Positions 294-55,750 of a DNA stretch of 64,000 nt are shown here, piece by piece. The DNA is from Roseibacillus sp. (lineage in GTDB: Bacteria > Verrucomicrobiota > Verrucomicrobiia > Verrucomicrobiales > Akkermansiaceae): NCBI GenBank assembly GCA_965242925.1, contig CBDEUM010000034.1:1-64000 (forward strand), written 5' to 3'. The notes under the pieces are model-generated. The model ran no database searches. It saw only the letters and a list, made by a program, of their open reading frames with translations, and was not told the origin of the DNA. How positions within the stretch are numbered: the stretch's first letter is position 1; each line of letters opens with the position of its first letter. The position numbers and the translations under genes are program-made.

Positions 294-936
294 TCAGAGC
301 ATGATCTCATCATGCCGAACCCTAGCACACGGCGGGGTCAGGGGAAACAACAGCAGATGCCCCGCATCAGGGTGCAGAATGCAGACTGACGCAGAGTTGT
401 CCGGATTTTCTCGGAAGAGAGGAGGGTTGCGTAATCGAAAGAACTCGGTCGCGGAGCCCAGGGGTATCCTGTAGGGGCTGCGACTGGCAGGAAAGCTGCG
501 CCAGGAGCCAGCCAGGGATCTGGAACGTTCGAGCGTGCCTTCTCCCTCCCAACGCACCGTAAGTTCTGTGTCATCATGCCCGAATTCCAGACCAGGATTG
601 AAGGGCGGCTCAACCGACACCCTGACCGAGAGAGCCACGTCCTCGCTGGTCACTGCCCCGTCGGAGTCCGAGACCACCCCGCTATAGAGCCCGGCGTCGG
701 TGGCCTGCAGGATTCGCAGCCCCAAGGTTGGGTCGCGTTTGCCCCGGCAAATCTCGTCCAGCCAACCTCCACTGATAGGTCAGCCGCCCACTGCCAGTGG
801 CGCGTACGAAAAGGCTGATCGAAGAGCCCTCATTCGCTGTTTGGCTCGCCGGCTGCGCCGTGATCACGGGTTGGCCGCATGCGATCACGGGGAGAGCAGC
901 GGCCAAGGCGACCCAGGCGTTTTGGAATAATCTCAT
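294..936 (-). pseudogene. Frameshifted secreted immunoglobulin (I-set-like) domain protein with FFRL-type tail
   Basis: ORF 682..966 (signal peptide, PVITAQPASQT...LTYQW) joins ORF 294..725 (LQATDAGLYS...SATEFFRL) across one extra base in the C4 run at 720-723; the frame then runs into element A. Confidence 0.7.
360..384 (+). repeat. Element A copy (left part)
   Basis: ccccgcatcagggtgcagaatgcag. Confidence 0.8.
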
Positions 937-1026
937 GAAAGTGTCAATCTGGGTGGCAAAGCGCACTTTGCAAGCAGCTCCCCCACTCGGGCATCGCCGT
1001 AAAAATCACACTATTTCACTGTTGCT

Positions 1027-1083
1027 GAACCGGGTGCCCTTTGCCGCCTGCGTTTTGTGGTGGTAGCCGGGTGGAGGAGCATG
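1027..1083 (+). repeat. Degenerate element A right half with class-1 flank
   Basis: gaaccgggtgccctttgccgcctgcgttttgtggtggtag...ATG resembles gaaacagggtg...ctttgccccctccg...ggtggtaag...ATG at 40431-40498. Confidence 0.5.
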
Positions 1084-1147
1084 AGCTTTGGGGCAAAAGG
1101 ATGGGTGTATGTGGCAACGAATGCCGCAATGCCTGTGAACTGCTTCC

Positions 1148-3619: not shown

Positions 3620-4888
3620 TCAGGAAAAATCCATCTGTGAAAAAGTGCCACTGCTCTTGCCGAAGGTGTCGCGCTCGACGCCGAACCATTGCAGGGACGA
3701 CAACCACAGATTGGACAAGGGCACGCGCTTATCTTTGTCAGCAGGAGAGACCACGTGGCCCTGATGCTTGAGGTCGCCGCCGGCCAGGAGCACGGGCAGA
3801 TCCTTGTTGCTGTGCTGGGAAGCGTCGCTCATGCCACTGCCCATGACCACCAGGGTGTCGTTGAAGATCTTTGCCTCCTGCAGACCGTCGAAGAGCCGGT
3901 TGACCTGGGTGAAGATGTAATCCTCCACCACCTTGAGTTGTTCCAACTTGTTCTCGCCCTTGCTATGGTGTGACAGGCCATGGTAGCCGGAGGTGACGTT
4001 GTCCAGGTCGGAGGTCGTAAATCCCATGGGAATCTCGAAGGTGGCGACCCGGGTGGAGTCGGTCTGCAGCGCCAGTGTCAGCAGATCGAAGAAAAGGGGC
4101 AGCTCCTCGATGTGCATGCGTTCTTCATCGGCTATCGGGTCGATGCCCGGCTTCGGCTTCGGCTTGTCGAGCCAGGCCTCGGACATCTGCAGCCTGCGCT
4201 CGACCTCGCGCACCGATGTCAGGTACTGATCGAGCTTGTCGCGATCGGCGTTGTTCAGGTCGCCGTGGAGGGATCTGGCGGACTCCCGAAGCGCATCGAG
4301 GATACTGCCGCGATGCCCCAGGCGCTTTCGCTCCAAGTCGCGCTCGGCTTTTGAACTTTGAACGAAAAGGGCTTCGAAAAGACGGGCCGGATTGTTCACC
4401 GGCGGGATTCGCACGCCCGTGCGAGTCCAGCACATATCCGTGCCTCCCGCCAATCCGGCGTTGATCGAGGGGAAACGGGCGGTGCTGCCGCTGTGTTCGG
4501 CGGCTACCTGATCCAGGGAAACATTCTTCTCGGGGAACCCTCCCGATTCCTCCTTGCGGATGCCGCCACTTAAGAAAGCATGCACCCCTGAATGGCCTCC
4601 ATGGGCCCCATCATCCAGATTCGAGAACACGGTGAAATCCTTACGGTGTTTCTCAATGTTCTTCAGGGTCTGGCTGCTGAGGTAGTTCGCGCCGGGCTCC
4701 TTCGGGAAGAATGCCGGGGGATAAAATCCCAGGTGATTACCGATGGCCAGAATCCTCCGGGGGCGTTCTGCAGGTGCTGCGGCGAAGGCCCGAGGAGTTC
4801 CACTTTTCAGGAATGGCAGGGCCAGCGACAGGCCGGCGCCCTGAAGGAAGCGGCGGCGGTCGATGGCGGATGGTTTATTCATACTCAT
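3620..4888 (-). CDS. DUF1552 (HXXSHH) protein, Tat-exported
   Basis: RRRFL Tat motif, LALPFL, SLDQVAA, YHGLSHH, PLSNLW; stop 3 bp before the DUF1592 gene. Confidence 0.92.
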   Translation of the reverse strand: MSMNKPSAIDRRRFLQGAGLSLALPFLKSGTPRAFAAAPAERPRRILAIGNHLGFYPPAFFPKEPGANYLSSQTLKNIEKHRKDFTVFSNLDDGAHGGHSGVHAFLSGGIRKEESGGFPEKNVSLDQVAAEHSGSTARFPSINAGLAGGTDMCWTRTGVRIPPVNNPARLFEALFVQSSKAERDLERKRLGHRGSILDALRESARSLHGDLNNADRDKLDQYLTSVREVERRLQMSEAWLDKPKPKPGIDPIADEERMHIEELPLFFDLLTLALQTDSTRVATFEIPMGFTTSDLDNVTSGYHGLSHHSKGENKLEQLKVVEDYIFTQVNRLFDGLQEAKIFNDTLVVMGSGMSDASQHSNKDLPVLLAGGDLKHQGHVVSPADKDKRVPLSNLWLSSLQWFGVERDTFGKSSGTFSQMDFS

Positions 4889-5075: not shown

Positions 5076-5110
5076 ACCCCCTGTATCAGGGTGCAGGAAA
5101 CAGGGTGCGG
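5076..5110 (+). repeat. Element A copy
   Basis: accccctgtatcagggtgcaggaaacagggtgcgg. Confidence 0.9.
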
Positions 5111-5390
5111 ACAACTCGATGCTCCATCTGATCCCTGGTAAACGAGTCCGCATGAGGAGAAGTGTAACCCTCACCCTGATCGTTGCGCAGTGTGCCCTGT
5201 TTGCCGGATGCGGGGAGAGCGGCAGCCTGATCTTGTCACCATAGGGCGCGGCCCAAGACGGTGAGATCCCACTATGAAGGTCGCAGAAGAGGATTACGGC
5301 TATCTGGCGGGCATGTTGGGGGGCGGGGAGAACAATTCGCACGGATTTTGCGAGGCAAGTCGCTTCACCTGGTGTAACTTTTACCCATTG

Positions 5391-6689
5391 ATGAAGCCTA
5401 TCGTTCTCATTCTCGGTACCGTCTGGCTTCTCACCCTGGGGGCCGCATTCCTGATTGGACAAGGTGCCCGCAATTCCGAATCGCAGGAAAATGCTGAGCT
5501 CGAGCAGCGCTCTTCTTCCCGCCCGCCCTCCTCTTCGCGTTCGCGCCACAGAACCAAGGGTTCCCGCGACTCGCGCTCCAAGGTTTTGCCCACTAGTCAG
5601 ACCGCGCGGATTGTCCGGGTCAACTCACCCCGCCAGGCCGTTACCCAGTTGGCCCAGCTCAACGATCCGGTGGAACGTGCCAAGGGCTTCCTCGCGCTGA
5701 TCGAAACTCTGGAGGCCGATGAATTTCTCGACGTGATCGCCGACTTCCGGGCCCTCGGAATCACTGAGCAGCGCATGAGCGAATACGGTATGTTGCTCCA
5801 TGCCTGGGCCAAGGCAGATCCCGAAGGCGCCCTCGACTACGCCATCAAGAATACCGGGACTCCCTTTGCCCGCCAGGCGATCATGGCCAGTTGGTCCACC
5901 GATGATCCCGAGGCTGCGATTGCCTTTGCCCGTGCCAATCATGAAGGAGAGGGCGCGAATCCCCTCCTGGTTGGAATCATCCGTGGCATTGCCCCCTCCG
6001 ACCTCAGTCGAGCCTCCGATCTTCTGCAGGATCTTCCCTACAGTCGCGAACGTGGTGACGCCTTGCAGAGCATCTTGCCCTTTGTGATGGAGAATGGATC
6101 CGATGTTGCACTCACCTGGGCTGCTGGTATCGCTGACCCGCAGCTCAAGAGTGGTGCCCTCACCTATATCATGAGTGATCTCGCTGGTAGTGAACCGCTG
6201 CGAGCGGCCGAACTGCTCATCACCATCGCCGACAACAACGCGGCGGTGCGAGTGGCGGATGATGTCGCAGGCTCTCTTGCCCGCGTTGATCTCGAGGGAG
6301 CCAAAAACTGGTCGGTAGGCTTGGATGACGACCTTCGGGCCGAAGCTGTGGAAGGTATCATCGGCCATTATGCCTCGCAGGATCCGGTGGCCGCTTCCGA
6401 GTGGTTGGGATCCCTCGCCGGGACGACCAACCTTGATTCTGCCATTCGTCAGTTCGCCTGGAGAAGCCAGGGTTCGCAACCAGAATTGTCCGCAGACTGG
6501 ATCGGCCAAATTCAAAATCCCGAGCGTCGCAATGAGATGTACAACAGTGTCCTCTCGCGCTGGTTACGCAGCGACCCCATCTCCGCGGAGCAATGGATAC
6601 AAACGACTCCCGACCTGCCAGAGGGTATTCGCGAGCTGCCCAACCGCCTCCGACGAAACACCACAGGGGAGGACAGGCAATCCAACTAG
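5391..6689 (+). CDS. Hypothetical membrane-anchored alpha-helical repeat protein
   Basis: N-terminal hydrophobic segment from MKPIVLILG; repeated W..DP..A..(W/F/Y) units; start reassigned from 5274. Confidence 0.8.
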   Translation: MKPIVLILGTVWLLTLGAAFLIGQGARNSESQENAELEQRSSSRPPSSSRSRHRTKGSRDSRSKVLPTSQTARIVRVNSPRQAVTQLAQLNDPVERAKGFLALIETLEADEFLDVIADFRALGITEQRMSEYGMLLHAWAKADPEGALDYAIKNTGTPFARQAIMASWSTDDPEAAIAFARANHEGEGANPLLVGIIRGIAPSDLSRASDLLQDLPYSRERGDALQSILPFVMENGSDVALTWAAGIADPQLKSGALTYIMSDLAGSEPLRAAELLITIADNNAAVRVADDVAGSLARVDLEGAKNWSVGLDDDLRAEAVEGIIGHYASQDPVAASEWLGSLAGTTNLDSAIRQFAWRSQGSQPELSADWIGQIQNPERRNEMYNSVLSRWLRSDPISAEQWIQTTPDLPEGIRELPNRLRRNTTGEDRQSN

Positions 6690-6925
6690 ACAACGCTAAG
6701 CAGCTATTCGCCGATGGGATGAAGTCTTGGGACGGTCAGGGCGACACTGCCGATCCGCTTCCGGTGGCGATCGTGGCCTCGATGGCTCGAGTAGAACTGA
6801 TCGCAGTGGGATCCTCGCAAATGTTCCCGATCCCTGCGAAACTGTCCGGCGATTACGGATCCACTTCAGCTGGTAAGCCAGCCCTGCCACACCGCCGGAG
6901 ACAGGGGGAGGAGAAGACTGCGCAT

Positions 6926-6989
6926 CCCCACCTGCCCCGGCTCCCGAAGCGCCATGAATTCAGGGCTGGGCAAGCGATTTTCAATCAAT
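6926..6989 (+). repeat. Element B copy 1
   Basis: ccccacctgccccggctcccgaagcgccatgaattcagggctgggcaagcgattttcaatcaat; direct repeat of 8492-8556. Confidence 0.85.
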
Positions 6990-7072
6990 AAAATCGACCA
7001 CAAGCGGCCGATGAGAAAAGGCCAGTCGCTTGCCGAGGCAAACAAGATTGCCGCCGGGCAACAACAAGAGGA

Positions 7073-8449
7073 ATGAAAAAATGCCGCCATATGAAATCCA
7101 AATACAGAAGATATCACCTCAACAAATTCCCCGCATCTCTGGGGCTCTGCGTGGGGATCCTCTTCCTTGCCGCCGCCCGGAATGAGGGTAATGCCAAGCC
7201 CTCTGCTGCTGAAAGTTTCCTCATGTGTTCACCGGGACAGGTCGTCTTTGGCGAAACTTTCACTCCCGGCTCTGTCAGTAAGCGCTGGGGCATTCGCGCA
7301 CACTATCAAATTAACGAAGGAATCCTCCAGCGAACAAAGCATGAACCGGAGGAGACGGCGCGGACCTTCCTCAAGGACGCCGCCTTTCACAATGTGATTT
7401 TTCGCTTCGATTTTCGCTTTGAAGGAGCAGCGGAAATCCGGTTGATGACCGGCGGCGGTGGCGGTTATAACACCGTGACGCAAATCTTCCCCACTCATTT
7501 CCAGATCAATACCGCGAAACGAAACAACGAATTCGCGCCTTCAATACAGGGTGAATGCGCATTCGATTTCAAGAAAGGGAATTGGCATACCATGACGGTG
7601 GAATTCCACGATGAGGAAGTGGTTGCCCATGTCGACAAAAAGCACTTTGTCGTGGGCCGGCACCCCATCATCAATACCAAGCGCACCTATCTGGCCTTCC
7701 AGGTCAGCGGCACCGGGGCTGCCTTTGACAATTTTTTTGTCTGGGAATCAGCACCAAAAGAAAACTGGCCGGCACAAAGGAAGCAGTTGGCCGCCTCCCA
7801 GGCGGCCCGGCCACCTGCTATCAAGCGGGATGCAAGGCAACAATACGATCTTATCATGCTCAAGCTGAAGGACCGTCTCAGTCGCAGTGACGCAAAATAC
7901 CGGGATCTCGTCGCCCACCATGAGAAGCTTAAAGCGGCGCTGAAAACAGACTATCCAAGAGCCTTCCGGACTCATAAGGAACTCTCCAAGGGCATCGCCA
8001 GGCAGCGAATAGAGATCAAGGGGAAGGATCCCCGTTTCAAGCAAATGGAGGGAGCAGTCAATCAAGCCCGGAAAACAGAAAAGGAATACATCCACTCCAC
8101 GCACCGGGAACTGAAAAACCTCCCAAAGCATCTCTATTACGCAGCCTTTGAGGAGCGGCGGAAAACCATGGCCTATGATTCCCGGTTAAAGGCACTGGAG
8201 AAAATCACCGCAGGCCTCGAGACGGATTTACACAAAGAATTCCCCGGGGCGTTCCGGGAAGTTGATGCCCTTGTCGAGAAAAGGAATGCTTATGCCGCCA
8301 GTCTCAGGGAGGACGAGAAATTCCGGACACGGAAAAAGTCAATTGCTGAAACCAATACCGAAATCAACAATTACCTGCTCGATGCAGAGCCGAGACTGAA
8401 ACAACTCGCGGCGGCAAGAATGGCGATCATTCAGGAGAAAAAGCAATGA
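7073..8449 (+). CDS. Hypothetical exported protein: beta-sandwich (ConA/DUF1080-like) domain plus charged helical C-terminus
   Basis: 458-aa ORF; signal-like segment; FRFDFRF and GNWHTMTVEF motifs; Lys/Glu-rich C-terminal half. Confidence 0.7.
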   Translation: MKKCRHMKSKYRRYHLNKFPASLGLCVGILFLAAARNEGNAKPSAAESFLMCSPGQVVFGETFTPGSVSKRWGIRAHYQINEGILQRTKHEPEETARTFLKDAAFHNVIFRFDFRFEGAAEIRLMTGGGGGYNTVTQIFPTHFQINTAKRNNEFAPSIQGECAFDFKKGNWHTMTVEFHDEEVVAHVDKKHFVVGRHPIINTKRTYLAFQVSGTGAAFDNFFVWESAPKENWPAQRKQLAASQAARPPAIKRDARQQYDLIMLKLKDRLSRSDAKYRDLVAHHEKLKAALKTDYPRAFRTHKELSKGIARQRIEIKGKDPRFKQMEGAVNQARKTEKEYIHSTHRELKNLPKHLYYAAFEERRKTMAYDSRLKALEKITAGLETDLHKEFPGAFREVDALVEKRNAYAASLREDEKFRTRKKSIAETNTEINNYLLDAEPRLKQLAAARMAIIQEKKQ

Positions 8450-8606: not shown

Positions 8607-8658
8607 ACCCCTCATCAGGGTGCAGGAAACAGGGTGCGAGTGGATTCCTCTTTGCCCC
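8607..8658 (+). repeat. Element A copy with class-1 flank
   Basis: acccctcatcagggtgcaggaaacagggtgcgagtggattcctctttgcccc. Confidence 0.9.
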
Positions 8659-8737
8659 ACGCAAGGGGTCTGGAAGTCCTGAGCCATCATGAAAGGCATC
8701 GCAGCATTCGGTGCCTTGGTGAGGTCGGGAATGTTGT

Positions 8738-9769
8738 TTAATTTTCTTTTGCCCGCTGCTGGAAGATTTGCATTACCTCGTCATCTGTCTGGCCAATGAA
8801 AGCGTCAAATTTCCCATAGAATTCAGCAAGCGACAAACCCATGTGTTTTTTGAATGCTGCTGATTTTCCGATGCGGGGAATGTCGTGATACCAGTCTTTC
8901 AGGACGACAGTTTCATCGATGCGCTGAACGTGAATCAAGTAGGCGGTCGCCCACGCTCCGAGCATATAGTAGACCTGTGCGGACCCGCCCCGGTCCCAGT
9001 AATCTTCATTATGCAATTGCCAGGTTTTTGTTTTGATCAAGAACTCGTTGATGCTGGGACGACCAATGTTGGCGCCTGATTGTCTTAGTTCTAACATGTA
9101 ACCCTTGAAGTCGATGAGCCCCATGTTTTCCATGAACCTGGCAGAGCTGTAGGTCGCCATGCCCTCCGCCATCCACGAGTTGATGTTTTTCTCAGAGGTT
9201 GGCTCTTGTTTGGTGTCACAGTGTGCCATCTGAAAAACATGGTGGTACTCGTGGAGAGCTCCCCATGTATTTTCAACCGGGTCCTTCTCCCGCCCTTTGG
9301 CGTTGGTCGTGACGTCCTCGTAGAGAATGGGCGGATCCTGAGTCCACGTCAGCCCACCTTCAGCCTTGCCGTCTAAAACGGACTTTATTTCGGCAATCAC
9401 GTTTGGACGCTTGAGAAACTCTTCAACTTGTTTTCTTGCGTTGGAAGGAGTGGAGTTTGGTTCGACCCGGGTCATGGCCCGCTGGCGATAAATTTCGCGG
9501 ACGCTTTCCTCGCTGTCCGATGCCAGCAAATAGACGTAATACGGACCATGGTTGCCGAAGTAGTCCATGGCATATCGTAGCCCGCGTCGATAATTCTTAA
9601 CTAGCGAATCGTCGGCATTTAATCCATCAGCGACAAACAAGACCGGCTCGATTGTTGCGGTTGCCTCGGCATTTAGAGAAGCAGGAGTGGTCTCTTGTGG
9701 TTCCGGGGAAGTCCTCTCTACACACCCCACAACCAGCAAACCAATCATAATTGGGATCAGTGTTTTCAT
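8738..9769 (-). CDS. Lipoprotein, putative zinc metallopeptidase (HEXXH + downstream E, gluzincin-like)
   Basis: Lipobox LVVGC; ALHEYHHVFQ followed by WMAEGMA. Confidence 0.75.
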   Translation of the reverse strand: MKTLIPIMIGLLVVGCVERTSPEPQETTPASLNAEATATIEPVLFVADGLNADDSLVKNYRRGLRYAMDYFGNHGPYYVYLLASDSEESVREIYRQRAMTRVEPNSTPSNARKQVEEFLKRPNVIAEIKSVLDGKAEGGLTWTQDPPILYEDVTTNAKGREKDPVENTWGALHEYHHVFQMAHCDTKQEPTSEKNINSWMAEGMATYSSARFMENMGLIDFKGYMLELRQSGANIGRPSINEFLIKTKTWQLHNEDYWDRGGSAQVYYMLGAWATAYLIHVQRIDETVVLKDWYHDIPRIGKSAAFKKHMGLSLAEFYGKFDAFIGQTDDEVMQIFQQRAKEN

Positions 9770-9834: not shown

Positions 9835-9886
9835 ACCCCGCATCAGGGTGTTGGAACCAGGGTGCGGGGTGGTTTGACATTGCCCC
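9835..9886 (+). repeat. Element A copy with class-1 flank; best-preserved dyad
   Basis: ACCCCGCA tcagggtgttggaaccaggg TGCGGGGT ggtttgacattgcccc. Confidence 0.9.
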
Positions 9887-11668: not shown

Positions 11669-11773
11669 CTCCGCATCAGGGCGCGGGGACTACTGCGCGC
11701 TAAAGCGGAAGAAGGCGGCGTTGTCTGACGACGCGAACTCAGGGCAGATGCTGCCATGGACCGCCGATACCGA
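11669..11773 (+). repeat. Collapsed element A plus orphan minus-strand C-terminal tail (class-2 flank)
   Basis: ctccgcatcagggcgcgggga, then minus-strand SVSAVHGSICPEFASSDNAAFFRFSAQ* (11773-11690). Confidence 0.85.
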
Positions 11774-11855
11774 TCCAGGGTTCACGGTGATGGTTGCGAA
11801 GCAAGGTTGGAGGGGGCGTCGCGGCGGCCGGTAATAGGGGGAACTCCAGGAGCGC

Positions 11856-17433: not shown

Positions 17434-17520
17434 TCCGCATCAGGGGCGGGAAACAGGCAGGGGGGTGGTTCAGCTTTTCTCCCCTGTCCCTGGGGGACGA
17501 TAGGGATGAAGAGACTCGTC
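17434..17520 (+). repeat. Element A copy with class-1 flank and truncated leader MKRLV
   Basis: tccgcatcaggggcgggaaacaggcaggggggtggttcagcttttctcccct...gggATGAAGAGACTCGTC, directly abutting element B. Confidence 0.8.
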
Positions 17521-19180: not shown

Positions 19181-19206
19181 GCAACGGATTGGAAATCCGT
19201 TGCTTT
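19181..19206. terminator. Perfect 9-bp hairpin, possible terminator
   Basis: gcaacggat tggaa atccgttgc ttt. Confidence 0.4.
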
Positions 19207-19388
19207 ATCCAGTTGGGCTACGGGAGAATGGGAGGGATTTTATGCGATGCGGGACGCTTGGCAAGACAGCTACACCTCCCCCACCAATCCCGACTTGTGT
19301 GGGTTGGCGGGTTCCGGTGGAGCGCTTGACAGCCAAGGACGGCCTCGATATCGGCGGGAAAGTTTGATTTGTTTGCCGTTCCTTCGGG

Positions 19389-19869: not shown

Positions 19870-19920
19870 CCCCCGCATCATGGTGCAGGAACAGGGCGCG
19901 GGGTGGTTTGCTTGGCCCCT
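19870..19920 (+). repeat. Element A copy with class-1 flank
   Basis: cccccgcatcatggtgcaggaacagggcgcggggtggtttgcttggcccct. Confidence 0.9.
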
Positions 19921-21512: not shown

Positions 21513-21549
21513 ACTCCGTATCAAGGTGTGGGGTGCAGGGGATCAGGGT
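21513..21549 (+). repeat. Degenerate element A copy
   Basis: actccgtatcaaggtgtggggtgcaggggatcagggt. Confidence 0.6.
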
Positions 21550-30787: not shown

Positions 30788-30854
30788 TGTCAGGGTGCAG
30801 GAAACAGGGTGGGGCGGGCTACTGCACACTGAAACGGAAGAAGGCGGTGTTATC
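30788..30854 (+). repeat. Element A copy plus orphan C-terminal tail (class-2 flank)
   Basis: tgtcagggtgcaggaaacagggtggggcggg, then minus-strand DNTAFFRFSVQ* (30854-30819). Confidence 0.9.
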
Positions 30855-39413: not shown

Positions 39414-39462
39414 CCAGGGATCAGGATGCGCGGTTGCTGTCCGTTGAACCCCAAGAAAGCGG
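39414..39462 (+). repeat. Highly degenerate element A plus class-2 tail
   Basis: ccagggatcaggatgcgcggttgctgtccgttgaaccccaagaaagcgg, compared with ctagtccacgctgaaccggaagaa at 55717. Confidence 0.4.
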
Positions 39463-40373: not shown

Positions 40374-40411
40374 ACTGCGGGAAGCAGGGGAAGCGGCACC
40401 CGATCCTCATA

Positions 40412-40465
40412 TCTCTGCATCAGGGGACGGGAAACAGGGTGTGGGGAGGTTTGGCTTTGCCCCCT
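40412..40465 (+). repeat. Element A copy with class-1 flank
   Basis: tctctgcatcaggggacgggaaacagggtgtggggaggtttggctttgccccct, leading into the ATG at 40496. Confidence 0.88.
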
Positions 40466-40495
40466 CCGCCAAATGGGTGGTAAGGATGAGGCGAA

Positions 40496-41803: not shown

Positions 41804-41811
41804 TCCCCACG

Positions 41812-41927
41812 ATCCGTATGATGGCAGGGTGGGGGATGGGGCAATACTCCACGCTTAACCGGAAGAAGGCGGCATTGTCTGTCCGGGCGAACTCCAGGGA
41901 GATGCTGCCGTCGATCACGGGCACCGA
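41812..41927 (+). repeat. Degenerate element A plus orphan C-terminal tail (class-2 flank)
   Basis: atccgtatgatggcagggtgggggatgggg, then minus-strand SVPVIDGSISLEFARTDNAAFFRLSVE with TAT where other copies have TAG. Confidence 0.8.
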
Positions 41928-41958
41928 TTGGGCTTCACGACGAAGGGAGCAGAGGCCC

Positions 41959-42602: not shown

Positions 42603-42640
42603 GCCCCCGTGTCAGGGTGGAGGAAACCGGTTGCGCAGGG
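42603..42640 (+). repeat. Element A copy
   Basis: gcccccgtgtcagggtggaggaaaccggttgcgcaggg. Confidence 0.75.
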
Positions 42641-45700: not shown

Positions 45701-46322
45701 TGAAGAACGGCGACTCGGGGTGGAGAATGGGTCCGCTTTGTCCGGTGTGCTGCGCGCTCAGTTGTCCGTCGACATAGAGGCGCATCTCGTTGCCGTCGTA
45801 GCTCGCCGCCACGTGGTACCAGGCCCCCGTGACAAAACTGCCGGCCGCTCGCAGGTAAGTGATGCGCGCCGGTTTCTCCGCGACCAGGCCGAAATAGAAC
45901 TGGTTGTTCCCATAACCGAGAATCCAACCGCGCTCATGGGTGCCGGTGTCGTGGACCGCACCCAGAATGCCACCCCATTCGATCGAACGGTCGATCTGGA
46001 CCCACGCCTCCACCGTCATCGCCTTGGCCGGTAGTCGTGCTTCGTTGATTTCCCGCGAGAGCAGGATGCCACCGACTTTAAGATTCCTGGCAGAGGGAAG
46101 AAGCCGCATGAACTGGAGCTCGCCGTCCCGCTCGAGTCGGTACTCTCCGATCATCTCACCCCGGAGGCCCCCGACCGCTGCGCGCAGTTTTCCTCCCTGG
46201 ACGCTGCCGGGCACGAACCGCCACTCATGGATCGGACCCTGCTCCCCAAGCGCTCCCAGAGCAGCTACGAGGAACAGTGCAGGAACACGCAGGCATCTTG
46301 CGAAGAGGAGTGCTGGATTCAT
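42717..46322 (-). CDS. LamG + PQQ-like (BamB-type) beta-propeller protein with central methyltransferase-like segment
   Basis: TVEAWV/WYHVAASYDG; DWPTW.GDNARSG; CLDA.TG...W repeats; LPYVDGIFNLV; WTH.YGD.GN; RPGCWIN...GCICSYP. Confidence 0.88.
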   Translation of the reverse strand: MNPALLFARCLRVPALFLVAALGALGEQGPIHEWRFVPGSVQGGKLRAAVGGLRGEMIGEYRLERDGELQFMRLLPSARNLKVGGILLSREINEARLPAKAMTVEAWVQIDRSIEWGGILGAVHDTGTHERGWILGYGNNQFYFGLVAEKPARITYLRAAGSFVTGAWYHVAASYDGNEMRLYVDGQLSAQHTGQSGPILHPESPFFTIGSYRDDNDYYPFSGKLERITLWHRALPAEELAKRFAKRKDEFPGIEEAVVERMGGPSDWPTWMGDNARSGRAGEALPVLSQQASWVHVPSRQPVPAWPETALSDYWRNRLTPEVPRVTFDWIHSVAVSDDRLFYGSSADDSLRCLDATTGEEQWNFIAGGPIRLAPTVIKNTVLFGCDDGAVYCLDARSGALRWKARPPSARDERLPGNGRLISLWPVRTGVLVKDDAAYFGAGLFPAEGCWQCAVDIRTGRILSEKPVSISPQGYLTERDGNVVASTGRAPGGGAFATISKHRQQKSDALAPTVPIKGYPHSSVMAGGVTYAGGSRSVAGFDEAGKKIWEAEVDGPARSLAAAAGRLFVSTESGRIYSFSSEGHSGAEVSPAPAPPTTKSTTVGQYLVKILPRNRGYILVVGIKDGALIEELALSTSMKVVAVDRDESRVKALRKKIGMKNWDNLTQPSIQHVSDYHKLPYVDGIFNLVTSEHRSLRLPVAELQRLLRPYDGVAALNHRIHRAKEVPAAGGWTHIYGDPGNSASSGGDRLPDGPLRPQWFGAPGPHHMVDRHLRAPPPLAANGFLFVPGREYLFGIDAFNGTILWEQQIENFTRVAVLRDGGNLALAKDNSLYAAAGPDCLEIDVNTGKHHRKFSVDPESQEWGYLAIGGVNDDLLIGSASPTGAIRRELAPVSIFSGAYGDRQRIVCSESLFALARKSGTRQWTYRPSGAIFNPSLCIHSGRIFFLESNEPQTLVVPGSHDGDRSDTVASGKAKRVAGRWHYSDLIESKGATIVALDLDSGKPLWRKPLELQSGIQTLFLSCAAGQLVVVDSRNGPSRAKDGRVTLHYDTQVYDPANGKRRWQHTFDTGRGKDLTHGEQDLHPVITGEMLIVEPQVYELATGKPLFTFRRSGGGGCGALSASASRLYYRASHPTTFDLQNRKQQKIANVSRPGCWINMIPASGLLLIPEGSSGCICSYPIQASMAFRPSPVVGSDEKGGR

Positions 46323-46323
46323 A

Positions 46324-46773
46324 TTAACAGGCGAGGAAGGTGCTCCGTCGTTCCTTACATATTCTTAACAGGTTCCTTCGCAAATCGCACGAAAATGAAG
46401 CGTTTCTTCCCTCCTTTTGACGGATCAACCGGTCCCTCTTCCGGTAAAACTCCGTGACGGCACGCAGCCGCGGCCATGGACGCTTCAGCATCGTAACACT
46501 GCTCAGGCCTGCCAGGTTTCGCACAAGCTTCTGTGTGCGATCAAACTGCGTTTGCACGATTGCCCTGGCAGCGCGGCCCAGGGCAGGGGGCATGGATGCC
46601 AGAGATGCCGGAGCGCGTAGCTTCTGATGATGTGGAAACCGCACGAACATGGGCCCCTCTACTGGACCGTAAACAACACGACCGTGTGTAATTGCGGTGT
46701 CGTCAAAACGCGCCGCTGCAGAAAGAACCGGATCCCTTGCAATCTCCTCTCCACTCAAAGACTTCTTTCTCAC
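46324..46773 (-). pseudogene. Possible detached C-terminal part of the upstream SGNH hydrolase gene
   Basis: In frame with 46789..48087, separated only by TAA and five sense codons (RK*LQTNWVRKK). Confidence 0.5.
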
Positions 46774-46788
46774 CCAGTTGGTCTGCAG

Positions 46789-48087
46789 TTACTTTCTGAC
46801 AGGATCAAGATCAATGCGGGAAGAGGCCCTTTCCGCCGGGGACATTGATCCCGGAGAATTCAGCGTTGCCTTGTGAGTCGGCTTTGCCAATCGGGCTTTC
46901 ATTAACTGTGACTCTCCACTGATCAGGCGGACACTTGAAATCACGGCGTCTTCCTCTGCTCCATCCGGGCACCAGATCCGAATTCTGTAATTACCCTTCC
47001 GTTCCTTTTTTGTGATTCCAAATTCCCTTACCGGGATCGTATCCCAGAAAAAAGACTGTTTTCCGTTCCCTCGGGAAGGGTGACTCCTGGTCAAATGGCG
47101 TCCATTGACTTCGATGGTCATAGAGCGAATTGGGCCGTGCTTTGTGATCCATTGGAAAGCGAGATGGTGCCCAGGTTCTGGCTCCACAGTCATTGTCAGC
47201 TCCAACGGCTTTTCCCGATTAGTGTAGTAGATGTAGAAATCGTTGTAGCGAGCGACTTCCCGATCGTAACGGGTGAAGTGAATCCATGCGTGTGGGTCTG
47301 GTGTGCCGTCACCCAGTCCAAGGCGGGCGAAAATCGGATGCAGCGCCTTTGCCCAGACTGCATATCCAGTCGTATTGGGATGGACGCGATCAGGCAGAAG
47401 ATTCGGCATCGAGGCTCCATCAGTCCCCGCAAAAAGCTCGTAAGTTTTAGCAATCGTCACTTGAGGATCGTCCTCCCAGGCCTTGGTGTAGTGCGAGTTG
47501 ATCTTTTGGATCTCGCTTACCGGGCGATAGTTGTCTGGAGCACAGGGAAAGGTCTCGCATACGATAATGGGCATCGTTGAACTGTGATCTTTCAACCGCT
47601 TCACAATGAGTTTCACATTGCCGAATACCGTTTCGCCCTTCGCTTTTTCAGCGAGATCATTCGCGCCAATCATGATCACCACCGCCTTCGGGTTGAGCGC
47701 AAGAACATCGCCAGGCAATCGCAGGAGGAGTCCGCGACTGGTGTCTCCATTGATACCGCGATTGGTTACCTTCAGGTCGCCAAAGAATCCACGGAAGTCG
47801 TCGCGCCAACCCTGTGTGATTGAGTCTCCCAGGAACACAATTGAGTTCTTTTCCTCATCCGTTTTGTTCAGCCAGGAGCTGCGCCGATTGCGCCAAACCC
47901 CGCGGAACCACTCCGTTCGCCTTAGTGGTCCTGCACCGGGCAGGCCTTCATCTGTATCTGGAATATTAAGCGGATCTCGTTCAGGAGCTGCGCTGGGATG
48001 GAACAGAAAAAGGAGAGAGAACAGGGTAAAGGTGGTGGCCGGAAACGTGGCTGTCATTATGAGAAATAGTGATGACCCGGACCTCAC
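46789..48087 (-). CDS. GDSL/SGNH hydrolase with extra C-terminal domain
   Basis: FLGDSIT, NRGINGD, GAND, DRVHP blocks. Confidence 0.88.
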   Translation of the reverse strand: MRSGSSLFLIMTATFPATTFTLFSLLFLFHPSAAPERDPLNIPDTDEGLPGAGPLRRTEWFRGVWRNRRSSWLNKTDEEKNSIVFLGDSITQGWRDDFRGFFGDLKVTNRGINGDTSRGLLLRLPGDVLALNPKAVVIMIGANDLAEKAKGETVFGNVKLIVKRLKDHSSTMPIIVCETFPCAPDNYRPVSEIQKINSHYTKAWEDDPQVTIAKTYELFAGTDGASMPNLLPDRVHPNTTGYAVWAKALHPIFARLGLGDGTPDPHAWIHFTRYDREVARYNDFYIYYTNREKPLELTMTVEPEPGHHLAFQWITKHGPIRSMTIEVNGRHLTRSHPSRGNGKQSFFWDTIPVREFGITKKERKGNYRIRIWCPDGAEEDAVISSVRLISGESQLMKARLAKPTHKATLNSPGSMSPAERASSRIDLDPVRK

Positions 48088-48172: not shown

Positions 48173-48215
48173 GCCCCCTTGTCAGGGCGCAGGAAACTGG
48201 GGGCGGGGTGGGTTT
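48173..48215 (+). repeat. Element A copy
   Basis: gcccccttgtcagggcgcaggaaactgggggcggggtgggttt. Confidence 0.8.
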
Positions 48216-48319
48216 CCCTCAATCCAGGGGGGCTGAAGACCTTGGCTTTCAAAGTGCCGCGGAAAACTCTTAACTGTTCCACGCTGCCGCGTCGGATATT
48301 CCGGCGGGCAACAAAGGTC

Positions 48320-49570
48320 ATGCGACTTGTCACAATATCTATCCTGATTTCCCTTTTTTCTGCTGCTCTTTGCTCTGCGGACTGGCCGCAGTTCCGCGGG
48401 CCCGATGGCCAGGGGCATTCTGATGCAAAGGGCATTCCCATTGTGTGGAGCGAGGAGAAAAACATCACGTGGAAATCCGCGGTCCCGGGGCAGGGGTATT
48501 CCTCGCCGGTCATTGCCGGAAATCAGATCTGGCTGACCAGTTCGCAGGAGGGTGGCAAATCGTTGCACGCGGTTTGCCTGGACAAGGTTACCGGTAAGTT
48601 GATGCACGATGTGGAGGTCCTGAGGGCGAAGGACGCCGGCTCAAAGCATCGGCTGAATGGTTACGCCTCTCCCACGCCCGTGTTGGATGGCGAACGTGTG
48701 TTTGTGCATTTTGGTCCGCGGGGAACGGTGTGTCTGGACACCGCCGGAAGAATCGTATGGAAGAACACCGAGTTCATATTCAATGTGATCCAGGGCGCGG
48801 CCAGTTCGCCTGTTCTTCATGAGGATCTCTTGATTCTCACCTGTGACGGTATCGACAATCAGTTTATTGTCGCCCTCGACAAGCAGACGGGCAGAACCAA
48901 ATGGAAGCAACCCCGCGCTCATCTTGAGGCAGCCGCCAAGAAACGGCTCATTGCGAAAATGTCCTATTCCACCCCGTTGATTCAAGCTGTCAATGGTGTC
49001 CCGCAACTGGTGTGCTCCGGGGCTGATCATGTGGCGGCATATGACCTTTCCACCGGCAAGGAAATCTGGTGGATGCCCTACAATGGCTTCTCCATCGTTG
49101 GACGCCCTTCCTATGGGAACGATCTGTTCTACGTTGTCGGTTCCATTCGACAGGATCACTTTTGCATCTTCGCTCTCCGCCCTGGAAAAGGCAGGCTTCG
49201 TGAGGACCAGCGCGTCTGGCAATTCTCCACCGGAATCGGCCACGTGCCTTCACCGATCCTGGTGGGCAGGGAAATTTTCGCCGTGCACGATACCGGCGTG
49301 GCTACGTGTATCGATGCCCTCACCGGCAGGGAGGTCTGGCGCGAACGCCTCGGCGGCAACCACGACGCCTCGCCGATTGAGATTCGTGGTCGCATCTATT
49401 TCTGCAACCGCGAAGGAAAAACCACCGTGCTGGCCGCTGGCAGGAAATTCAAGGTGCTGTCGACAAATCAGTTGAAGGGTATTTTTAAGGCTTCGCCAGC
49501 GGTGGAAGAGGGAGCGTTGTTCCTGCGAAGCGATACCCACCTCTACCGGATCGAGAAGCCCTTAAAATAA
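48320..49570 (+). CDS. PQQ-binding-like beta-propeller protein
   Basis: Signal peptide, DWPQFRGP, GYSSPV, ASPTPV, ALDK.TG...W repeats; start reassigned from 48107. Confidence 0.9.
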   Translation: MRLVTISILISLFSAALCSADWPQFRGPDGQGHSDAKGIPIVWSEEKNITWKSAVPGQGYSSPVIAGNQIWLTSSQEGGKSLHAVCLDKVTGKLMHDVEVLRAKDAGSKHRLNGYASPTPVLDGERVFVHFGPRGTVCLDTAGRIVWKNTEFIFNVIQGAASSPVLHEDLLILTCDGIDNQFIVALDKQTGRTKWKQPRAHLEAAAKKRLIAKMSYSTPLIQAVNGVPQLVCSGADHVAAYDLSTGKEIWWMPYNGFSIVGRPSYGNDLFYVVGSIRQDHFCIFALRPGKGRLREDQRVWQFSTGIGHVPSPILVGREIFAVHDTGVATCIDALTGREVWRERLGGNHDASPIEIRGRIYFCNREGKTTVLAAGRKFKVLSTNQLKGIFKASPAVEEGALFLRSDTHLYRIEKPLK

Positions 49571-49571
49571 C

Positions 49572-49606
49572 ATCCCATATCAGAGCGCCCCTAACAGGGA
49601 GGGGTG
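49572..49606 (+). repeat. Degenerate element A copy
   Basis: atcccatatcagagcgcccctaacagggaggggtg, 1 bp after the stop of the PQQ gene. Confidence 0.55.
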
Positions 49607-49634
49607 CTCCACCCTGTTCCGGCAGAGGGTTGCA

Positions 49635-54447: not shown

Positions 54448-54507
54448 GACTGCCAGTCTTGCCAGACTGCAGGGCGAGACAACTGTTATCGGTGGCCGGC
54501 TTTCTCT

Positions 54508-55602
54508 TCAGTCGGTGCCTTGGTTTATTCGAATGAGCCTTCCGATGACTTGATCGCAAATAAGATGGGAGCGCTCATCACGAGAATTCGTTGCTACAAG
54601 AAAGGACCGGTTCAACTTTGGAGCCACCCAGACGGTGGCGTACCACATCGTGTTGCTTCCGCTGTGGGTCAGCACCGTCCCTTTGCCCCACGGGCGTTTG
54701 GCAAGAATCCATCCTCCTGCATATGTCCCTGTGGGCGTGATCAATCTGCTCCGAGTTTTTCGATCCAGTCCAAGGTTCTTGCCGCCTGGTAGCTGCATGG
54801 CGAGGAATTTGGCCCAATCCGCAACCGAGCAATGCACGCGACCGGCCGGACCAAGGGCCTCCGCGTTGTCGAATTGGCGAGGTCGCCATCCGTCTCCTGA
54901 CCAAATGTGACCCCATGGCTGATCCGTATTTCCAGGTACGCCAGGGGCGCCAAATCCAGCCGAGTCCATCCCAAGCGGATCGAAGATGCGTTTTCCCATC
55001 AAGGACTCCCAATTCGAGCCGGTGACTCTCTCCGCCATGCATCCGGCGATCATATATCCCAAGTTGGAATAGTGATACCCTCCTTTCTTGAGGGGTGGGG
55101 CTTCCTTGAGGGTTTCCTTCAAAATCGCTAGGCGCCTTTTCTTCAGCTCAATCTTCCCATGAGCCCACCAGTTCTCCGCATTAGCCGGCACCCTCGCCCG
55201 ATGGGTGAGCAATTCCCAGACGGTGACGGAATAGTAATCGGGATGGATGCTGTCCTTGAGGTCAGGAAGGGCTTCGATGAGCGAGGTCTCCCAAGTGAGT
55301 TTTCCTTCGGCCACCAGGGTGGCCAGCAGGACCGACGTCATGGCCTTGGTGCAGGAACCCAGGTGAATCAGATCCTGGGCTGTCAGTTTCTTGTCGCTGC
55401 CTATTCTCCGTATCCCTGCGGCACCCACTGCCAATACTCCCTTCGACGAAGTAATCGCTGCCACCATACCCGGAGCTTTCTCCCGGCTCACGGTGTCCGC
55501 GAGAACCTCTTCAATCTTCTTAGACATGCCGACTGCCTTCACCGGCGACGCATAAGCTGCTGGGGTCAGCAAAAGGAGGAAAGGCAGCACCGATAGCTTC
55601 AT
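54508..55602 (-). CDS. Serine hydrolase, beta-lactamase class C/AmpC-like family
   Basis: GSCTK (SxxK), LLTH, YHYSN (YxN), HSGS motifs; signal peptide. Confidence 0.9.
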   Translation of the reverse strand: MKLSVLPFLLLLTPAAYASPVKAVGMSKKIEEVLADTVSREKAPGMVAAITSSKGVLAVGAAGIRRIGSDKKLTAQDLIHLGSCTKAMTSVLLATLVAEGKLTWETSLIEALPDLKDSIHPDYYSVTVWELLTHRARVPANAENWWAHGKIELKKRRLAILKETLKEAPPLKKGGYHYSNLGYMIAGCMAERVTGSNWESLMGKRIFDPLGMDSAGFGAPGVPGNTDQPWGHIWSGDGWRPRQFDNAEALGPAGRVHCSVADWAKFLAMQLPGGKNLGLDRKTRSRLITPTGTYAGGWILAKRPWGKGTVLTHSGSNTMWYATVWVAPKLNRSFLVATNSRDERSHLICDQVIGRLIRINQGTD

Positions 55603-55676
55603 CTGGTCAGCGTAAGGACAACCCACCAGTCAGCCTATTTAAAAAGGCGCCAGCGCCAATGGAGAGAGGGGCACGG

Positions 55677-55750
55677 CCACGCATCGGGGAGCAGGAATCA
55701 GGTGCCTGGTGGGGGACTAGTCCACGCTGAACCGGAAGAATGCGCGTTGC
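55677..55750 (+). repeat. Element A copy plus orphan C-terminal tail (class-2 flank)
   Basis: ccacgcatcggggagcaggaatcaggtgcctggtggggga, then minus-strand AFFRFSVD* (55743-55717). Confidence 0.8.

What the first reader, a model, noticed from the sequence alone, without database searches (positions are those of the whole stretch)
360..55716. Integron-like cassette array delimited by a co-oriented, non-attC ~36-bp element
Seen: a motif with consensus ACCCCGCATCAGGGTGCAGGAAACAGGGTGCGGGGT lies in most intergenic gaps between transcription units. Clear copies are at 360, 5076, 8607, 9835, 11669, 17434, 19870, 30788, 40412, 42603, 48173 and 55677; weaker ones at 1027, 21513, 26277, 28686, 33275, 39414, 41812 and 49572. 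All are on the + strand although the enclosed genes face both ways. They divide 55 kb into modules of mostly 1-2 unrelated exported-protein genes, and I saw none inside tight operons (DUF1592/DUF1552 pairs, 56024-64000). Left flanks diverge abruptly while right flanks fall into two conserved classes, as expected of a crossover point. Known: integron attC sites have RYYYAAC...GTTRRRY ends, which this element lacks. Inference: a site-specific accretion platform whose recombinase lies outside the window.
Basis: partly seen in the sequence, partly recalled or inferred. Interest (0 to 1): 0.9.

Follow-up and report, generated by a model that had tools for sequence, protein, structure and literature searches.

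The report
Polar junction repeat bounding swappable gene slots
A short, one-directional DNA repeat sits between gene units in variable "island" regions of marine Roseibacillus bacteria, and neighbouring genes have been re-shuffled exactly at it, but it is not an integron and no enzyme that acts on it was found.

Summary
The repeat is real. A profile finds 10 copies in the window at E<=0.01, all on the + strand and all intergenic, plus 3 marginal ones. The conserved part is a ~25-bp core (ATCAGGGTGCAGGAAnCAGGGTGCGG), not the 36-mer. It does not fold and has no attC ends.

It is not genome-wide: G000 has 14 hits, 10 of them in this window. It was found in 14 of 20 Roseibacillus genomes. Of 28 contigs with two or more copies, 27 have all copies on one strand.

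Modules between copies sit in different orders and loci in different species. Among 223 copies, flanks re-assort around the core, and the switch lies inside it. At least one array gene is a core-genome gene moved in as a bare ORF.

Roughly half of the synteny breaks, one 1.26-kb indel and the outer island borders are not at the repeat. G000 has only XerC/XerD-like recombinases and one unlinked integrase, with no IntI, serine, IS110, HUH or RT gene.

Verdict: a new, polar, cassette-like junction element. Recombination at the core is supported. A dedicated site-specific recombinase is not shown.

The parts
360..377 (+). Element copy, left half only (truncated)
   Evidence: Profile hit E 4e-4, model positions 2-19. 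The sequence diverges after CAGGGTGCAG.
5078..5110 (+). Element copy between divergent genes (3620-4888 minus, 5274-6689 plus)
   Evidence: E 3.6e-11. Homology to G006:C396 starts at 5079.
8608..8638 (+). Element copy between convergent genes, followed by a class-A leader remnant (to about 8720)
   Evidence: E 1.1e-10. The remnant encodes about 13 codons of a signal peptide joined to the 3' end of the M60-like gene.
9836..9868 (+). Element copy between divergent genes. The only copy with a good outer hairpin.
   Evidence: E 6.2e-9. Fold -13.1 kcal/mol, z -1.57.
11669..11801 (+). Short-form (one-repeat) element copy plus a class-B arm (~120-nt relic of a minus-strand gene 3' end, ...FFRFSAQ stop)
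   Evidence: Profile E 0.15. Relic translation. The arm recurs in at least 12 contexts in 7 genomes.
17434..17457 (+). Element copy upstream of the minus-strand CotH/LTD gene
   Evidence: E 0.0028. Homology to G008:C147 ends at 17433.
19870..19902 (+). Element copy with a class-A remnant
   Evidence: E 3.5e-7. Flank.
21514..21528 (+). Marginal or decayed element copy
   Evidence: E 0.57. G006:C511 has a strong copy at the homologous junction, 1236-1278.
30790..30813 (+). Element copy between convergent genes, followed by a class-B-like relic
   Evidence: E 1.1e-6. Homology to G008:C166 ends at 30814. Relic translation.
39414..39450 (+). Decayed copy (not found by the profile) at the left border of module 39445-40393
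   Evidence: No profile hit. The homologous module in G008:C180 (2220-1271) is bounded by copies at 2259 and 1257.
40413..40445 (+). Element copy followed by the class-A leader (5'UTR plus lipoprotein signal peptide) of gene 40496-41803
   Evidence: E 8e-5. Leader MRRLALLFAALLVAG.... Module equals G008:C211 26287-27675.
41812..41928 (+). Decayed copy plus class-B arm at the right border of module 40420-41808
   Evidence: No profile hit. The position is homologous to a copy at L012 7678. Arm.
42604..42635 (+). Element copy at the 3' side of the minus-strand operon 42717-48087
   Evidence: E 1.4e-5. Homology to G008:C211 starts at 42673.
48174..48207 (+). Element copy between divergent units. 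Left border of the PQQ module 48182-49572.
   Evidence: E 1.5e-5. Junction alignment.
49572..49610 (+). Decayed copy at the right border of the PQQ module
   Evidence: No + strand profile hit. G008:C211 has a copy at the homologous point, 6689.
55679..55702 (+). Marginal copy plus class-B-like relic. The last copy before the operon 56024-64000.
   Evidence: E 2.0. Homologous to the copy at L012 8957. Relic.
8720..9739 (-). M60-like gene, a core-genome gene relocated into the array as a bare ORF
   Evidence: In 6 of 6 congeners examined it lies beside blocks homologous to G000 C38:295-304 kb. Homology to the ancestral locus stops about 15 nt beyond the stop and start codons.
19184..19290 (-). 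Relic of a tRNA-Arg gene (promoter plus 5' half up to the anticodon stem)
   Evidence: Alignment with G000 C33 tRNA-Arg(tct) and G008:C169. ARAGORN finds no intact tRNA in the window.

Best explanation
The element (here 'E') is a genus-specific, strongly polar junction repeat. It delimits exchangeable gene slots in the flexible islands of marine Roseibacillus. These islands encode surface and exported proteins.

Its working part is a ~25-bp double-stranded core: two direct CAGGGTGC repeats 14 bp apart. The core is present once, or as 2-4 tandem units with a 41-42-bp period.

I think E most likely acts as a sequence-specific recombination site or hot spot, recognised by a factor encoded elsewhere and not identified. 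Exchange inside the core joins the left neighbour of one copy to the right neighbour of another. This moves, swaps and deletes the units between copies and keeps all copies in one orientation.

Slot contents are also replaced by ordinary illegitimate recombination close to E. That leaves leader and trailer stumps next to it and lets bare ORFs from the core genome enter.

Shown: polarity, restriction to islands, shuffling between species, flank re-assortment within the core, and capture of a core gene.

Inferred: that the exchange is sequence-specific rather than general homologous recombination, and that a dedicated protein exists.
For: (1) Ten of 10 window copies are on the + strand and intergenic. 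Across 20 genomes, 27 of 28 multi-copy contigs have all copies on one strand. In the fetched loci, 38 of 39 adjacent pairs agree. All multi-copy metagenome contigs but one are uniform.

(2) Information content is about 1.4 bits x 35 positions. Core positions are 70-99% conserved in 65 copies. That is far more than a typical regulator site carries.

(3) Modules change neighbours between species, with borders at E. G000 48182-49572 and 5212-6680 are adjacent in G008:C211 but 43 kb apart here. 40420-41808 and 54518-55744 are adjacent there. 39445-40393 lies on another G008 contig, bounded by E on both sides.

(4) Of 223 unique copies, 71 pairs share only the right flank, 42 share only the left flank and 15 share both. 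Linkage switches between core positions -32 and -10.

(5) A non-coding ~120-nt relic (class B) travels with E into at least 12 contexts. It ends at an E-like sequence in about 10 of 14 copies.

(6) The M60-like gene moved from a conserved core locus into the array as an ORF with +-15 nt.

(7) Tandem cores have a 41-42-bp period, about four helical turns by my arithmetic.
Against: No recombinase is linked to E. G000 (90% complete) has only XerD-like and XerC-like genes and one 411-aa integrase at C30:199 kb. G014, G006 and G012 show only Xer-like pairs. PF00239, PF01548, PF01797, PF00078 and PF04986 give 0 hits in G000. The array ORFs scanned hold none either.

Linkage decays gradually across the core rather than as a step. 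That fits homologous recombination or gene conversion at least as well.

By my hand count, only about 14 of 30 block ends lie within 50 nt of an E in either genome.

A 1.26-kb indel (W 25277-26535) in a 97-99% relative is a GGA(C/G)GGG microhomology deletion. A strain-level replacement at C30:331 kb and an island inserted at C34:65080-65188 have non-E borders.

The core has direct arms, not the inverted arms of tyrosine or serine recombinase core sites. The order of the first 20 kb is the same in contigs from two other studies, so the array is not visibly dynamic within the species.
Confidence: 0.45

Rival explanations
1. E is a conserved protein-binding repeat with a non-recombinational job, such as a boundary, insulator, regulator or nucleoid site between transcription units. 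The shuffling is a by-product: RecA-dependent or replication-slippage recombination and gene conversion between many near-identical direct repeats. Co-orientation follows because arrays grow by unequal exchange or duplication.
For: Exchange points are spread over the whole shared core. No recombinase was found. Many rearrangements occur away from E. E sits at a fixed 53 nt upstream of the ATG of a shared lipoprotein leader. It packs tightly against stop codons on both sides. Tandem units are in helical phase. The order is stable within the species.
Against: There is no consistent relation to gene direction: E lies in divergent, convergent and tandem gaps. A fixed polarity therefore has no obvious regulatory sense. 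The information content is far above that of usual regulator sites. A 25-bp identity is at or below the length usually needed for efficient homologous recombination (my knowledge, not tested). No candidate binding protein is known.
Confidence: 0.3
2. E is a miniature non-autonomous mobile element (REP- or MITE-like) that inserted copy by copy into intergenic DNA. A strand-specific (single-strand, replication-linked) mechanism would give the uniform orientation.
For: E is short, strictly intergenic, near-identical between copies and restricted to the genus. The consensus has 8-bp outer inverted repeats (motif). In 6 of 7 contigs with |GC skew|>0.05, the E strand agrees with the G-rich strand.
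Against: The outer inverted repeats are poorly conserved, and 7 of 8 folds are no better than shuffles. There is no Y1 or Y2 HUH, IS110 or other transposase in G000. Copies cluster in islands instead of scattering. Flank re-assortment is not explained by insertion alone. The singles at C29 and C30 lie against the skew. No empty-site/filled-site pair or target duplication was seen.
Confidence: 0.1
3. E is a replication- or segregation-linked polar chromosome signal (Ter-like fork barrier, or a KOPS- or Chi-like motif) of the terminus region.
For: The window lies 100-164 kb from the GC-skew switch of C34 and from a dif-like 28-mer at C34:164444. The G-rich strand of E points toward it.
Against: The most strand-skewed octamers genome-wide are of the GGGGAGGG type, and E's own k-mers are only ordinarily skewed. 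No opposed set of copies lies beyond the switch. Six of 20 congeners have none. Arrays in relatives lie at other loci, such as beside tRNA-Arg. The singles at C29 and C30 have the opposite polarity.
Confidence: 0.05
4. It is a true integron or a CALIN with an unusual attC.
For: Co-oriented sites separate small gene units.
Against: No integron integrase was found: the two Xer-like proteins score 127-131 bits against a cut-off of 265 for TIGR02249. There is no conserved hairpin and no RYYYAAC/GTTRRRY ends. Units hold 1-3 genes in both directions with their own leaders.
Confidence: 0.02

Closest known systems
Integron cassette arrays (IntI + attC), including CALINs
   Same: Both have an array of co-oriented short sites separating small, unrelated gene units. 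Unit order differs between relatives. Non-coding 'empty' units exist. One unit here is a tightly trimmed ORF.
   Different: E has no intI, no folded attC and no R/L boxes. The site is a ~25-bp duplex core with direct repeats. Units face both ways and often carry their own leader. Many breakpoints fall off-site.
Xer-dependent pdif modules of Acinetobacter plasmids, and IMEX elements
   Same: Small gene modules are bounded by a ~28-bp site, use host-encoded recombinases, and have no recombinase gene in the module.
   Different: pdif sites have inverted XerC/XerD arms around a 6-bp spacer and alternate in orientation (my knowledge). E has direct arms and uniform orientation. It does not resemble the candidate chromosomal dif at C34:164444 beyond a CCGCAT stretch.
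Tandem accretion of integrative elements (CIME/ICE arrays) at an att site
   Same: A direct-repeat junction sequence sits at every border. Arrays in relatives abut a tRNA gene (tRNA-Arg), and a tRNA relic lies inside this array.
   Different: Units here are 0.1-6 kb, not elements. E is unrelated to the tRNA sequence. No integrase was found in or next to the arrays.
REP/BIME and other small intergenic repeats
   Same: Short, strictly extragenic, species-group specific, and sometimes tandem.
   Different: REPs are palindromic, number in the hundreds genome-wide, occur in both orientations and come with a RAYT gene (my knowledge). E does not fold, has 14 hits in G000 (10 in one 56-kb stretch), is polar, and G000 has no Y1 transposase.
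Variable lipoprotein loci of mycoplasmas (vsp/vpma/vsa) with a recombination site in a conserved 5' leader
   Same: A conserved 5'UTR plus lipoprotein signal peptide is shared by unrelated mature proteins, with a short conserved site just upstream.
   Different: Those systems work by inversion between inverted sites with an adjacent Xer-like recombinase and a single promoter (my knowledge). Here the sites are direct, only some units carry the leader, and no adjacent recombinase is present.

Membership tests
Integron / CALIN | Integron integrase (IntI) gene at the array, or at least in the genome | tested here: not met
   PF00589 finds 3 genes in G000, none on the array. NCBIfam TIGR02249 scores 127 and 131 bits against a cut-off of 265. 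The assembly is 90% complete.
Integron / CALIN | attC: imperfect inverted repeats (R''/L''...L'/R') that fold as a single-strand hairpin, with RYYYAAC/GTTRRRY ends | tested here: not met
   Eight folds (4 copies, both strands) gave z from -1.57 to +2.14; only the 9836 copy forms a long stem. The outer repeats are 30-60% conserved. The core motifs are absent from the consensus.
Integron / CALIN | Co-oriented sites separating gene cassettes | tested here: met
   10 of 10 copies on the + strand. 27 of 28 multi-copy contigs are uniform.
REP/BIME with RAYT | Palindromic unit, hundreds of dispersed copies, RAYT (Y1 HUH) gene | tested here: not met
   No conserved hairpin. 14 hits in G000, 10 of them in 56 kb. 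PF01797 gives 0 hits in G000, G008, G014 and G006.
MITE | Terminal inverted repeats, target-site duplication, presence/absence at conserved sites | tested here: inconclusive
   The consensus has 8-bp outer inverted repeats, but they are weakly conserved. No target duplication was seen in the flank listings. No empty/filled pair was found, and the search was not exhaustive.
Xer (dif-like / pdif) modules | 28-bp site with inverted XerC and XerD arms around a 6-bp spacer, and resemblance to the host dif | tested here: not met
   The E arms are direct repeats. The candidate dif at C34:164444, at the skew switch, shares only a CCGCAT stretch with E's weakly conserved left edge. The comparison motif for dif was recalled.
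Tandem accretion of integrative elements at an att site | att repeat derived from the target (e.g. a tRNA end), and an integrase in one member | tested here: not met
   E is unrelated to tRNA-Arg. No integrase is in the arrays or array edges scanned. The tRNA-Arg adjacency and the relic are real.
Iteron / centromere-like repeat arrays | In-phase tandem direct repeats next to a rep or par gene | tested here: inconclusive
   A 41-42-bp tandem period occurs at some junctions. No rep/par gene was seen in the ORFs scanned. Most copies are single.

The most novel reading that the evidence does not exclude
Roseibacillus carries a cassette platform of a new kind. A ~25-bp duplex core with direct half-sites is used by a trans-encoded, so far unrecognised recombinase (or by re-targeted XerC/D). 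This excises and inserts gene slots, builds polar arrays beside tRNA-Arg and elsewhere, and recruits bare ORFs from the core genome behind ready-made promoter and lipoprotein-leader adaptors. It would be a functional analogue of integrons that arose independently in Verrucomicrobiota.
Probability: 0.25. Interest if true: 0.9.

Novelty: new variant of a known kind. Interest (0 to 1): 0.62.

Why it matters
Integrons are the only well-understood system that files unrelated genes into ordered, co-oriented arrays, and how cassettes are born is still open. This element shows the same outward pattern: polar sites, swappable units, empty units and a core gene captured as a bare ORF. It lacks both integron hallmarks, and it occurs in an abundant, uncultured marine lineage.

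If a specific enzyme works on the core, this is an independent invention of cassette genetics and a possible tool for site-directed insertion. If not, it is a clear natural case of how a 25-bp repeat can organise the turnover of surface-protein genes.

It also explains why these regions break metagenome assemblies and end up mis-binned in public MAGs.

Tried and rejected
(a) Exact 36-mer search: 1 match only. I replaced it with profiles.

(b) Rfam on the window: 0 families.

(c) Hairpin/attC reading: folds are not better than shuffles.

(d) KOPS-like reading: E k-mers are not among the most skewed octamers.

(e) Replichore tracking: local skew agrees in 19 of 27 contigs, and in 6 of 7 with |skew|>0.05. 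The G000 singles at C29 and C30 disagree. Unresolved.

(f) Public runs. All four laid runs were Logan contigs, not reads. Contigs of X18 and X1 bridge the copies at 5078, 8608, 9836, 11669 and 17434 in the window's order. The 'joints' 5110>9859 and 8638>9859 have sides of <=26 nt with 11-12 other letters between them. They are other copies of the repeat, not excision products. No circles or deletions were seen, and contigs cannot show rare forms.

(g) Recombinase hunt by Pfam family in up to 5 genomes per search, and in array ORFs: nothing linked.

(h) The centres of the two mixed-orientation contigs (G008:C180, PVBE010798754.1) hold CotH, F5/8-type-C and 3-keto-disaccharide-hydrolase-like proteins, with no platform gene.

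(i) The region around the G000 integrase (C30:190-210 kb) has no E at <=3 mismatches.

(j) Hits in MAGs labelled Deltaproteobacteria, Poribacteria, Halieaceae, Acidiferrobacter, Limisphaerales and others. Their flanks are 86-96% identical to Roseibacillus loci, so these are mis-binned contigs, not spread to other phyla. Five single hits (Acidobacteriaceae x2, Streptomyces, Zoogloeaceae, Trebonia/Pseudonocardiales) have no flank homology and are chance matches of the 19 specified bases.

(k) Earlier findings of this scan: nothing on record.

(l) Literature: three full-text searches returned no paper on such an element. The searches were Roseibacillus+integron (0 papers); Verrucomicrobia+integron+attC (14 papers, listing and abstract starts seen); and Verrucomicrobia / flexible genomic island / intergenic repeat (8 papers, listing seen). 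No paper was read in full.
Full report
WHAT IS THERE

The window is G000:C34:1-64000 of a 4.58-Mb, 42-contig assembly. Public record titles of its relatives name the genus Roseibacillus, from marine metagenome-assembled genomes.

Its halves are over-represented and almost all on the + strand. A profile built from eight copies, then refined on 223, gives 10 hits in the window at E<=0.01: 360, 5078, 8608, 9836, 17434, 19870, 30790, 40413, 42604 and 48174. All are on the + strand and all are intergenic. Three more are marginal (11669, 21514, 55679).

Three of these (39414, 41812, 49572) sit where G008 has a good copy at the homologous junction.

The conserved unit is a ~25-bp core, ATCAGGGTGCAGGAAnCAGGGTGCGG, at 70-99% per position in 65 copies. 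The outer ACCCCGC and GGGGTGG parts are only 30-60% conserved. The core contains two direct CAGGGTGC repeats 14 bp apart. At some junctions it is present as 2-4 tandem units with a 41-42-bp period.

Single-strand folds of four copies on both strands are no better than shuffles in 7 of 8 cases. Rfam finds nothing.

WHERE IT OCCURS

E is not genome-wide. A sequence-only covariance model finds 14 hits in G000: 10 in C34:1-56 kb, 3 on the small contig C23, and singles at C30:331159 and C38:90344. The refined HMM adds C29:313904.

Across the 20 genomes of the genus, 14 have hits at E<=0.01: G008 37, G005 21, G000 14, G014 12, G009 11, G006 9, G012 7, G016 5, G010 3, and five genomes with 1-2. Six have none. 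These counts are lower bounds, because only 150 candidates per genome were scored.

The 26-mer was found in no other genus among 21 further genomes of the family and order. Hits in MAGs labelled as other phyla have flanks 86-96% identical to Roseibacillus loci. They are therefore mis-binned contigs.

Polarity is general. By my count of the rows, 27 of 28 contigs with two or more hits carry them all on one strand. In the fetched loci, 38 of 39 adjacent pairs agree. All multi-copy metagenome contigs but one are uniform. The two mixed contigs (G008:C180 and one metagenome contig) are both divergent, with minus copies on the left and plus copies on the right.

SURROUNDINGS

The genes between copies are typical exported and surface proteins of Planctomycetes-Verrucomicrobia: DUF1592/DUF1552 pairs, DUF1501, CotH plus lamin-tail giants, LamG, PQQ-propeller, GDSL, a beta-lactamase-fold protein and PEP-CTERM proteins.

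E lies in divergent, convergent and tandem gaps alike. It is therefore tied neither to promoters nor to terminators in any simple way. Stop codons of genes on either side often abut it within a few bases.

- Class A is a 5'UTR plus a lipoprotein signal peptide (MKRLVLLFAALLVAGCGE...), 53 nt from the core. It is shared by otherwise unrelated mature proteins.
- Class B is a ~120-nt relic of the 3' end of a minus-strand gene (...FFRFSxQ stop). It is usually not attached to a gene. In about 10 of 14 aligned copies it ends at the same point, in a sequence that itself resembles a shortened core.

Left flanks also fall into families in the wider data, for example a plus-strand gene end ...KGEEVET....

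THE ARRAY IN ITS CHROMOSOME

All large contigs have a uniform GC skew of about 0.1. C34 is the exception. Its first 160 kb has a skew near zero, and from 170 kb onward the skew is negative. A dif-like 28-mer lies at C34:164444, at the switch. It matches the E. coli motif, as I recalled it, at 19 of 28 positions. So the window lies 100-164 kb from the probable terminus, in a scrambled zone.

In relatives, E copies lie at other loci, at synteny breaks against G000.
- In G008:C169 and G009:C11 they flank the 5' side of tRNA-Arg(tct). G000 (C33:49.7-51.5 kb) has no array there.
- In G014:C12 and G008:C166 they lie at the C31:8.5-kb boundary.
- In G006:C511 and G012:C154 they lie next to genes that are on C4 and C18 in G000.

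Window 19184-19290 (minus strand) is a relic of the tRNA-Arg promoter and 5' half. It has the same position relative to the next E as in G008. This suggests that part of this array once lay beside tRNA-Arg.

EVIDENCE THAT UNITS MOVE

BLASTN of the window against fetched loci shows the same modules in other orders.
- 48182-49572 and 5212-6680 are adjacent in G008:C211 but 43 kb apart here.
- 40420-41808 and 54518-55744 are adjacent there.
- 39445-40393 is on another G008 contig, with E on both sides.

Junction alignments show that homology starts or stops at the element. In a genus-wide search, each gene of window 1-20 kb lies on a different contig in every other genome.

The M60-like gene (8738-9769) lies beside blocks homologous to G000 C38:295-304 kb in 6 of 6 congeners examined (G004, G011, G016, G015, G012, G005). 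Both sides were seen in three of them and one side in the other three. In G000 that locus lacks the gene, which sits in the array instead. Homology to the ancestral copy covers only the ORF plus about 15 nt at each end. On one side it is joined to a 13-codon stump of a class-A leader. The array copy is 86% identical to G012's, while the C38 flanks are 90-95% identical. It may therefore have arrived from another congener rather than by an internal move. Gene 7073-8449 likewise has its homologues next to C34:299.8-kb equivalents in G012 and G019.

WHERE EXCHANGE HAPPENS

For 223 unique copies I compared flanks pairwise. The result was 71 pairs sharing only the right flank, 42 sharing only the left flank, and 15 sharing both.

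In right-only pairs, identity is above background from the right end of the core. It falls to background left of position -33. In left-only pairs the pattern is the mirror image. The switch therefore lies inside the core.

It is gradual, as judged at the few variable positions (-32, -21, -10). It is not a step. The pairs are not independent, and the comparison was ungapped.

WHAT SPEAKS AGAINST A DEDICATED SITE-SPECIFIC SYSTEM

G000 has three tyrosine recombinases: XerD-like (C13), XerC-like (C31) and a 411-aa integrase (C30). None is near a copy of E. G014, G006 and G012 show only Xer-like genes. Serine recombinase, IS110, Y1 and Y2 HUH, and RT families give 0 hits in G000. The assemblies are 70-96% complete, so absence is not proven.

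By my hand count against the E positions, about 14 of 30 homology-block ends lie within 50 nt of an E in one or both genomes. The other 16 or so do not.

A 97-99% relative lacks window 25277-26535 through a microhomology deletion with no E at the joint. A 99% strain differs from G000 at C30:331 kb on both sides of a shared 26-nt core, but the variable stretch ends at a sharp non-E border. An island holding module 40411-41808 sits in another genome inside the E-free gap C34:65080-65188, with non-E outer borders.

Contigs from two other studies bridge five copies in the window's order, and no excision joints were seen. Those data are contigs and cannot show rare forms.

READING

The descriptive claim is solid. 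E is a polar, island-restricted junction repeat around which neighbours re-assort.

For mechanism, I favour a sequence-specific recombination site or hot spot served in trans (0.45). Four points support this:
- the very high information content;
- strict polarity irrespective of gene direction;
- the spread of a functionless E-bounded relic, which ends at an E-like pseudo-site;
- borders that fall in a 25-bp stretch too short for efficient general recombination (the last point is from my knowledge).

The main rival (0.30) is a protein-binding repeat with another function whose copies recombine by homology or slippage. The graded exchange profile and the missing enzyme fit it well. MITE/REP-like insertion (0.10), a terminus-linked polar signal (0.05) and a true integron (0.02) fit worse.

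Replacement of slot contents by illegitimate joins near E, which leaves leader and trailer stumps, happens under any of these readings.

NOVELTY

Three full-text searches found no description of such an element. I saw only listings and the starts of abstracts, and read no paper in full. The scan's own records hold nothing. I file it as a new variant of repeat-bounded cassette arrays. If an enzyme is found, it would be a new kind.

Noticed in passing
G000:C34:164444-164471 (outside the window): A dif-like 28-mer lies exactly at the GC-skew switch of contig C34 (cumulative skew maximum about 150-170 kb). This is probably the chromosome terminus. The first 160 kb of C34 have almost no skew, unlike every other large contig.
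   Followed up: partly
window 19184-19290 (minus strand): Relic of a tRNA-Arg gene (promoter plus 5' half up to the anticodon stem). The intact tRNA-Arg(tct) is at G000 C33:51447-51524. In G008 and G009 the arrays abut that tRNA.
   Followed up: partly
window 8720-9739; G000 C38:297927-299216: The M60-like gene and a neighbour (now at C34:269840-270802) are missing from their conserved locus on C38 and sit elsewhere in G000. What remains at the C38 site (1.29 kb, against 4.07 kb in G012) was not examined.
   Followed up: partly
window 6921-6992: A separate ~70-nt intergenic repeat with many copies (81-94% identity) in G009 and G014. It is unrelated to the element studied.
   Followed up: no
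G000:C30 (coordinates not determined): An 18-mer family (GAGCCTCCCATCGCAGAG) occurs about 36 times on one strand of contig C30. It could be a tandem coding repeat or a CRISPR-like array.
   Followed up: no
window 46413-46464 versus G008:C211:35768-45550: G008 has about 10 kb inserted inside what is a tight minus-strand operon here (42717-48087). No copy of the element was detected at either border.
   Followed up: no
window 40496-41803: This lipoprotein gene is internally repetitive: many staggered self-like BLAST hits to its G008 homologue, and weak DUF2510 hits.
   Followed up: no
L028, L037, L047-L049, L051, L056, L057, L061, L062, L067 (public MAG contigs): Small contigs binned as Deltaproteobacteria, Poribacteria, Halieaceae, Acidiferrobacter, Planctomycetota, Opitutia and Limisphaerales carry the element. 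Several have flanks 86-96% identical to Roseibacillus loci, so these are likely binning errors in public MAGs.
   Followed up: yes
L130:3236-3803 and G000 C30:198291-198855: In a metagenome contig, a 570-nt piece that lies just upstream of the 411-aa integrase gene in G000 sits next to an element copy. No link between that integrase and the element could be shown.
   Followed up: partly
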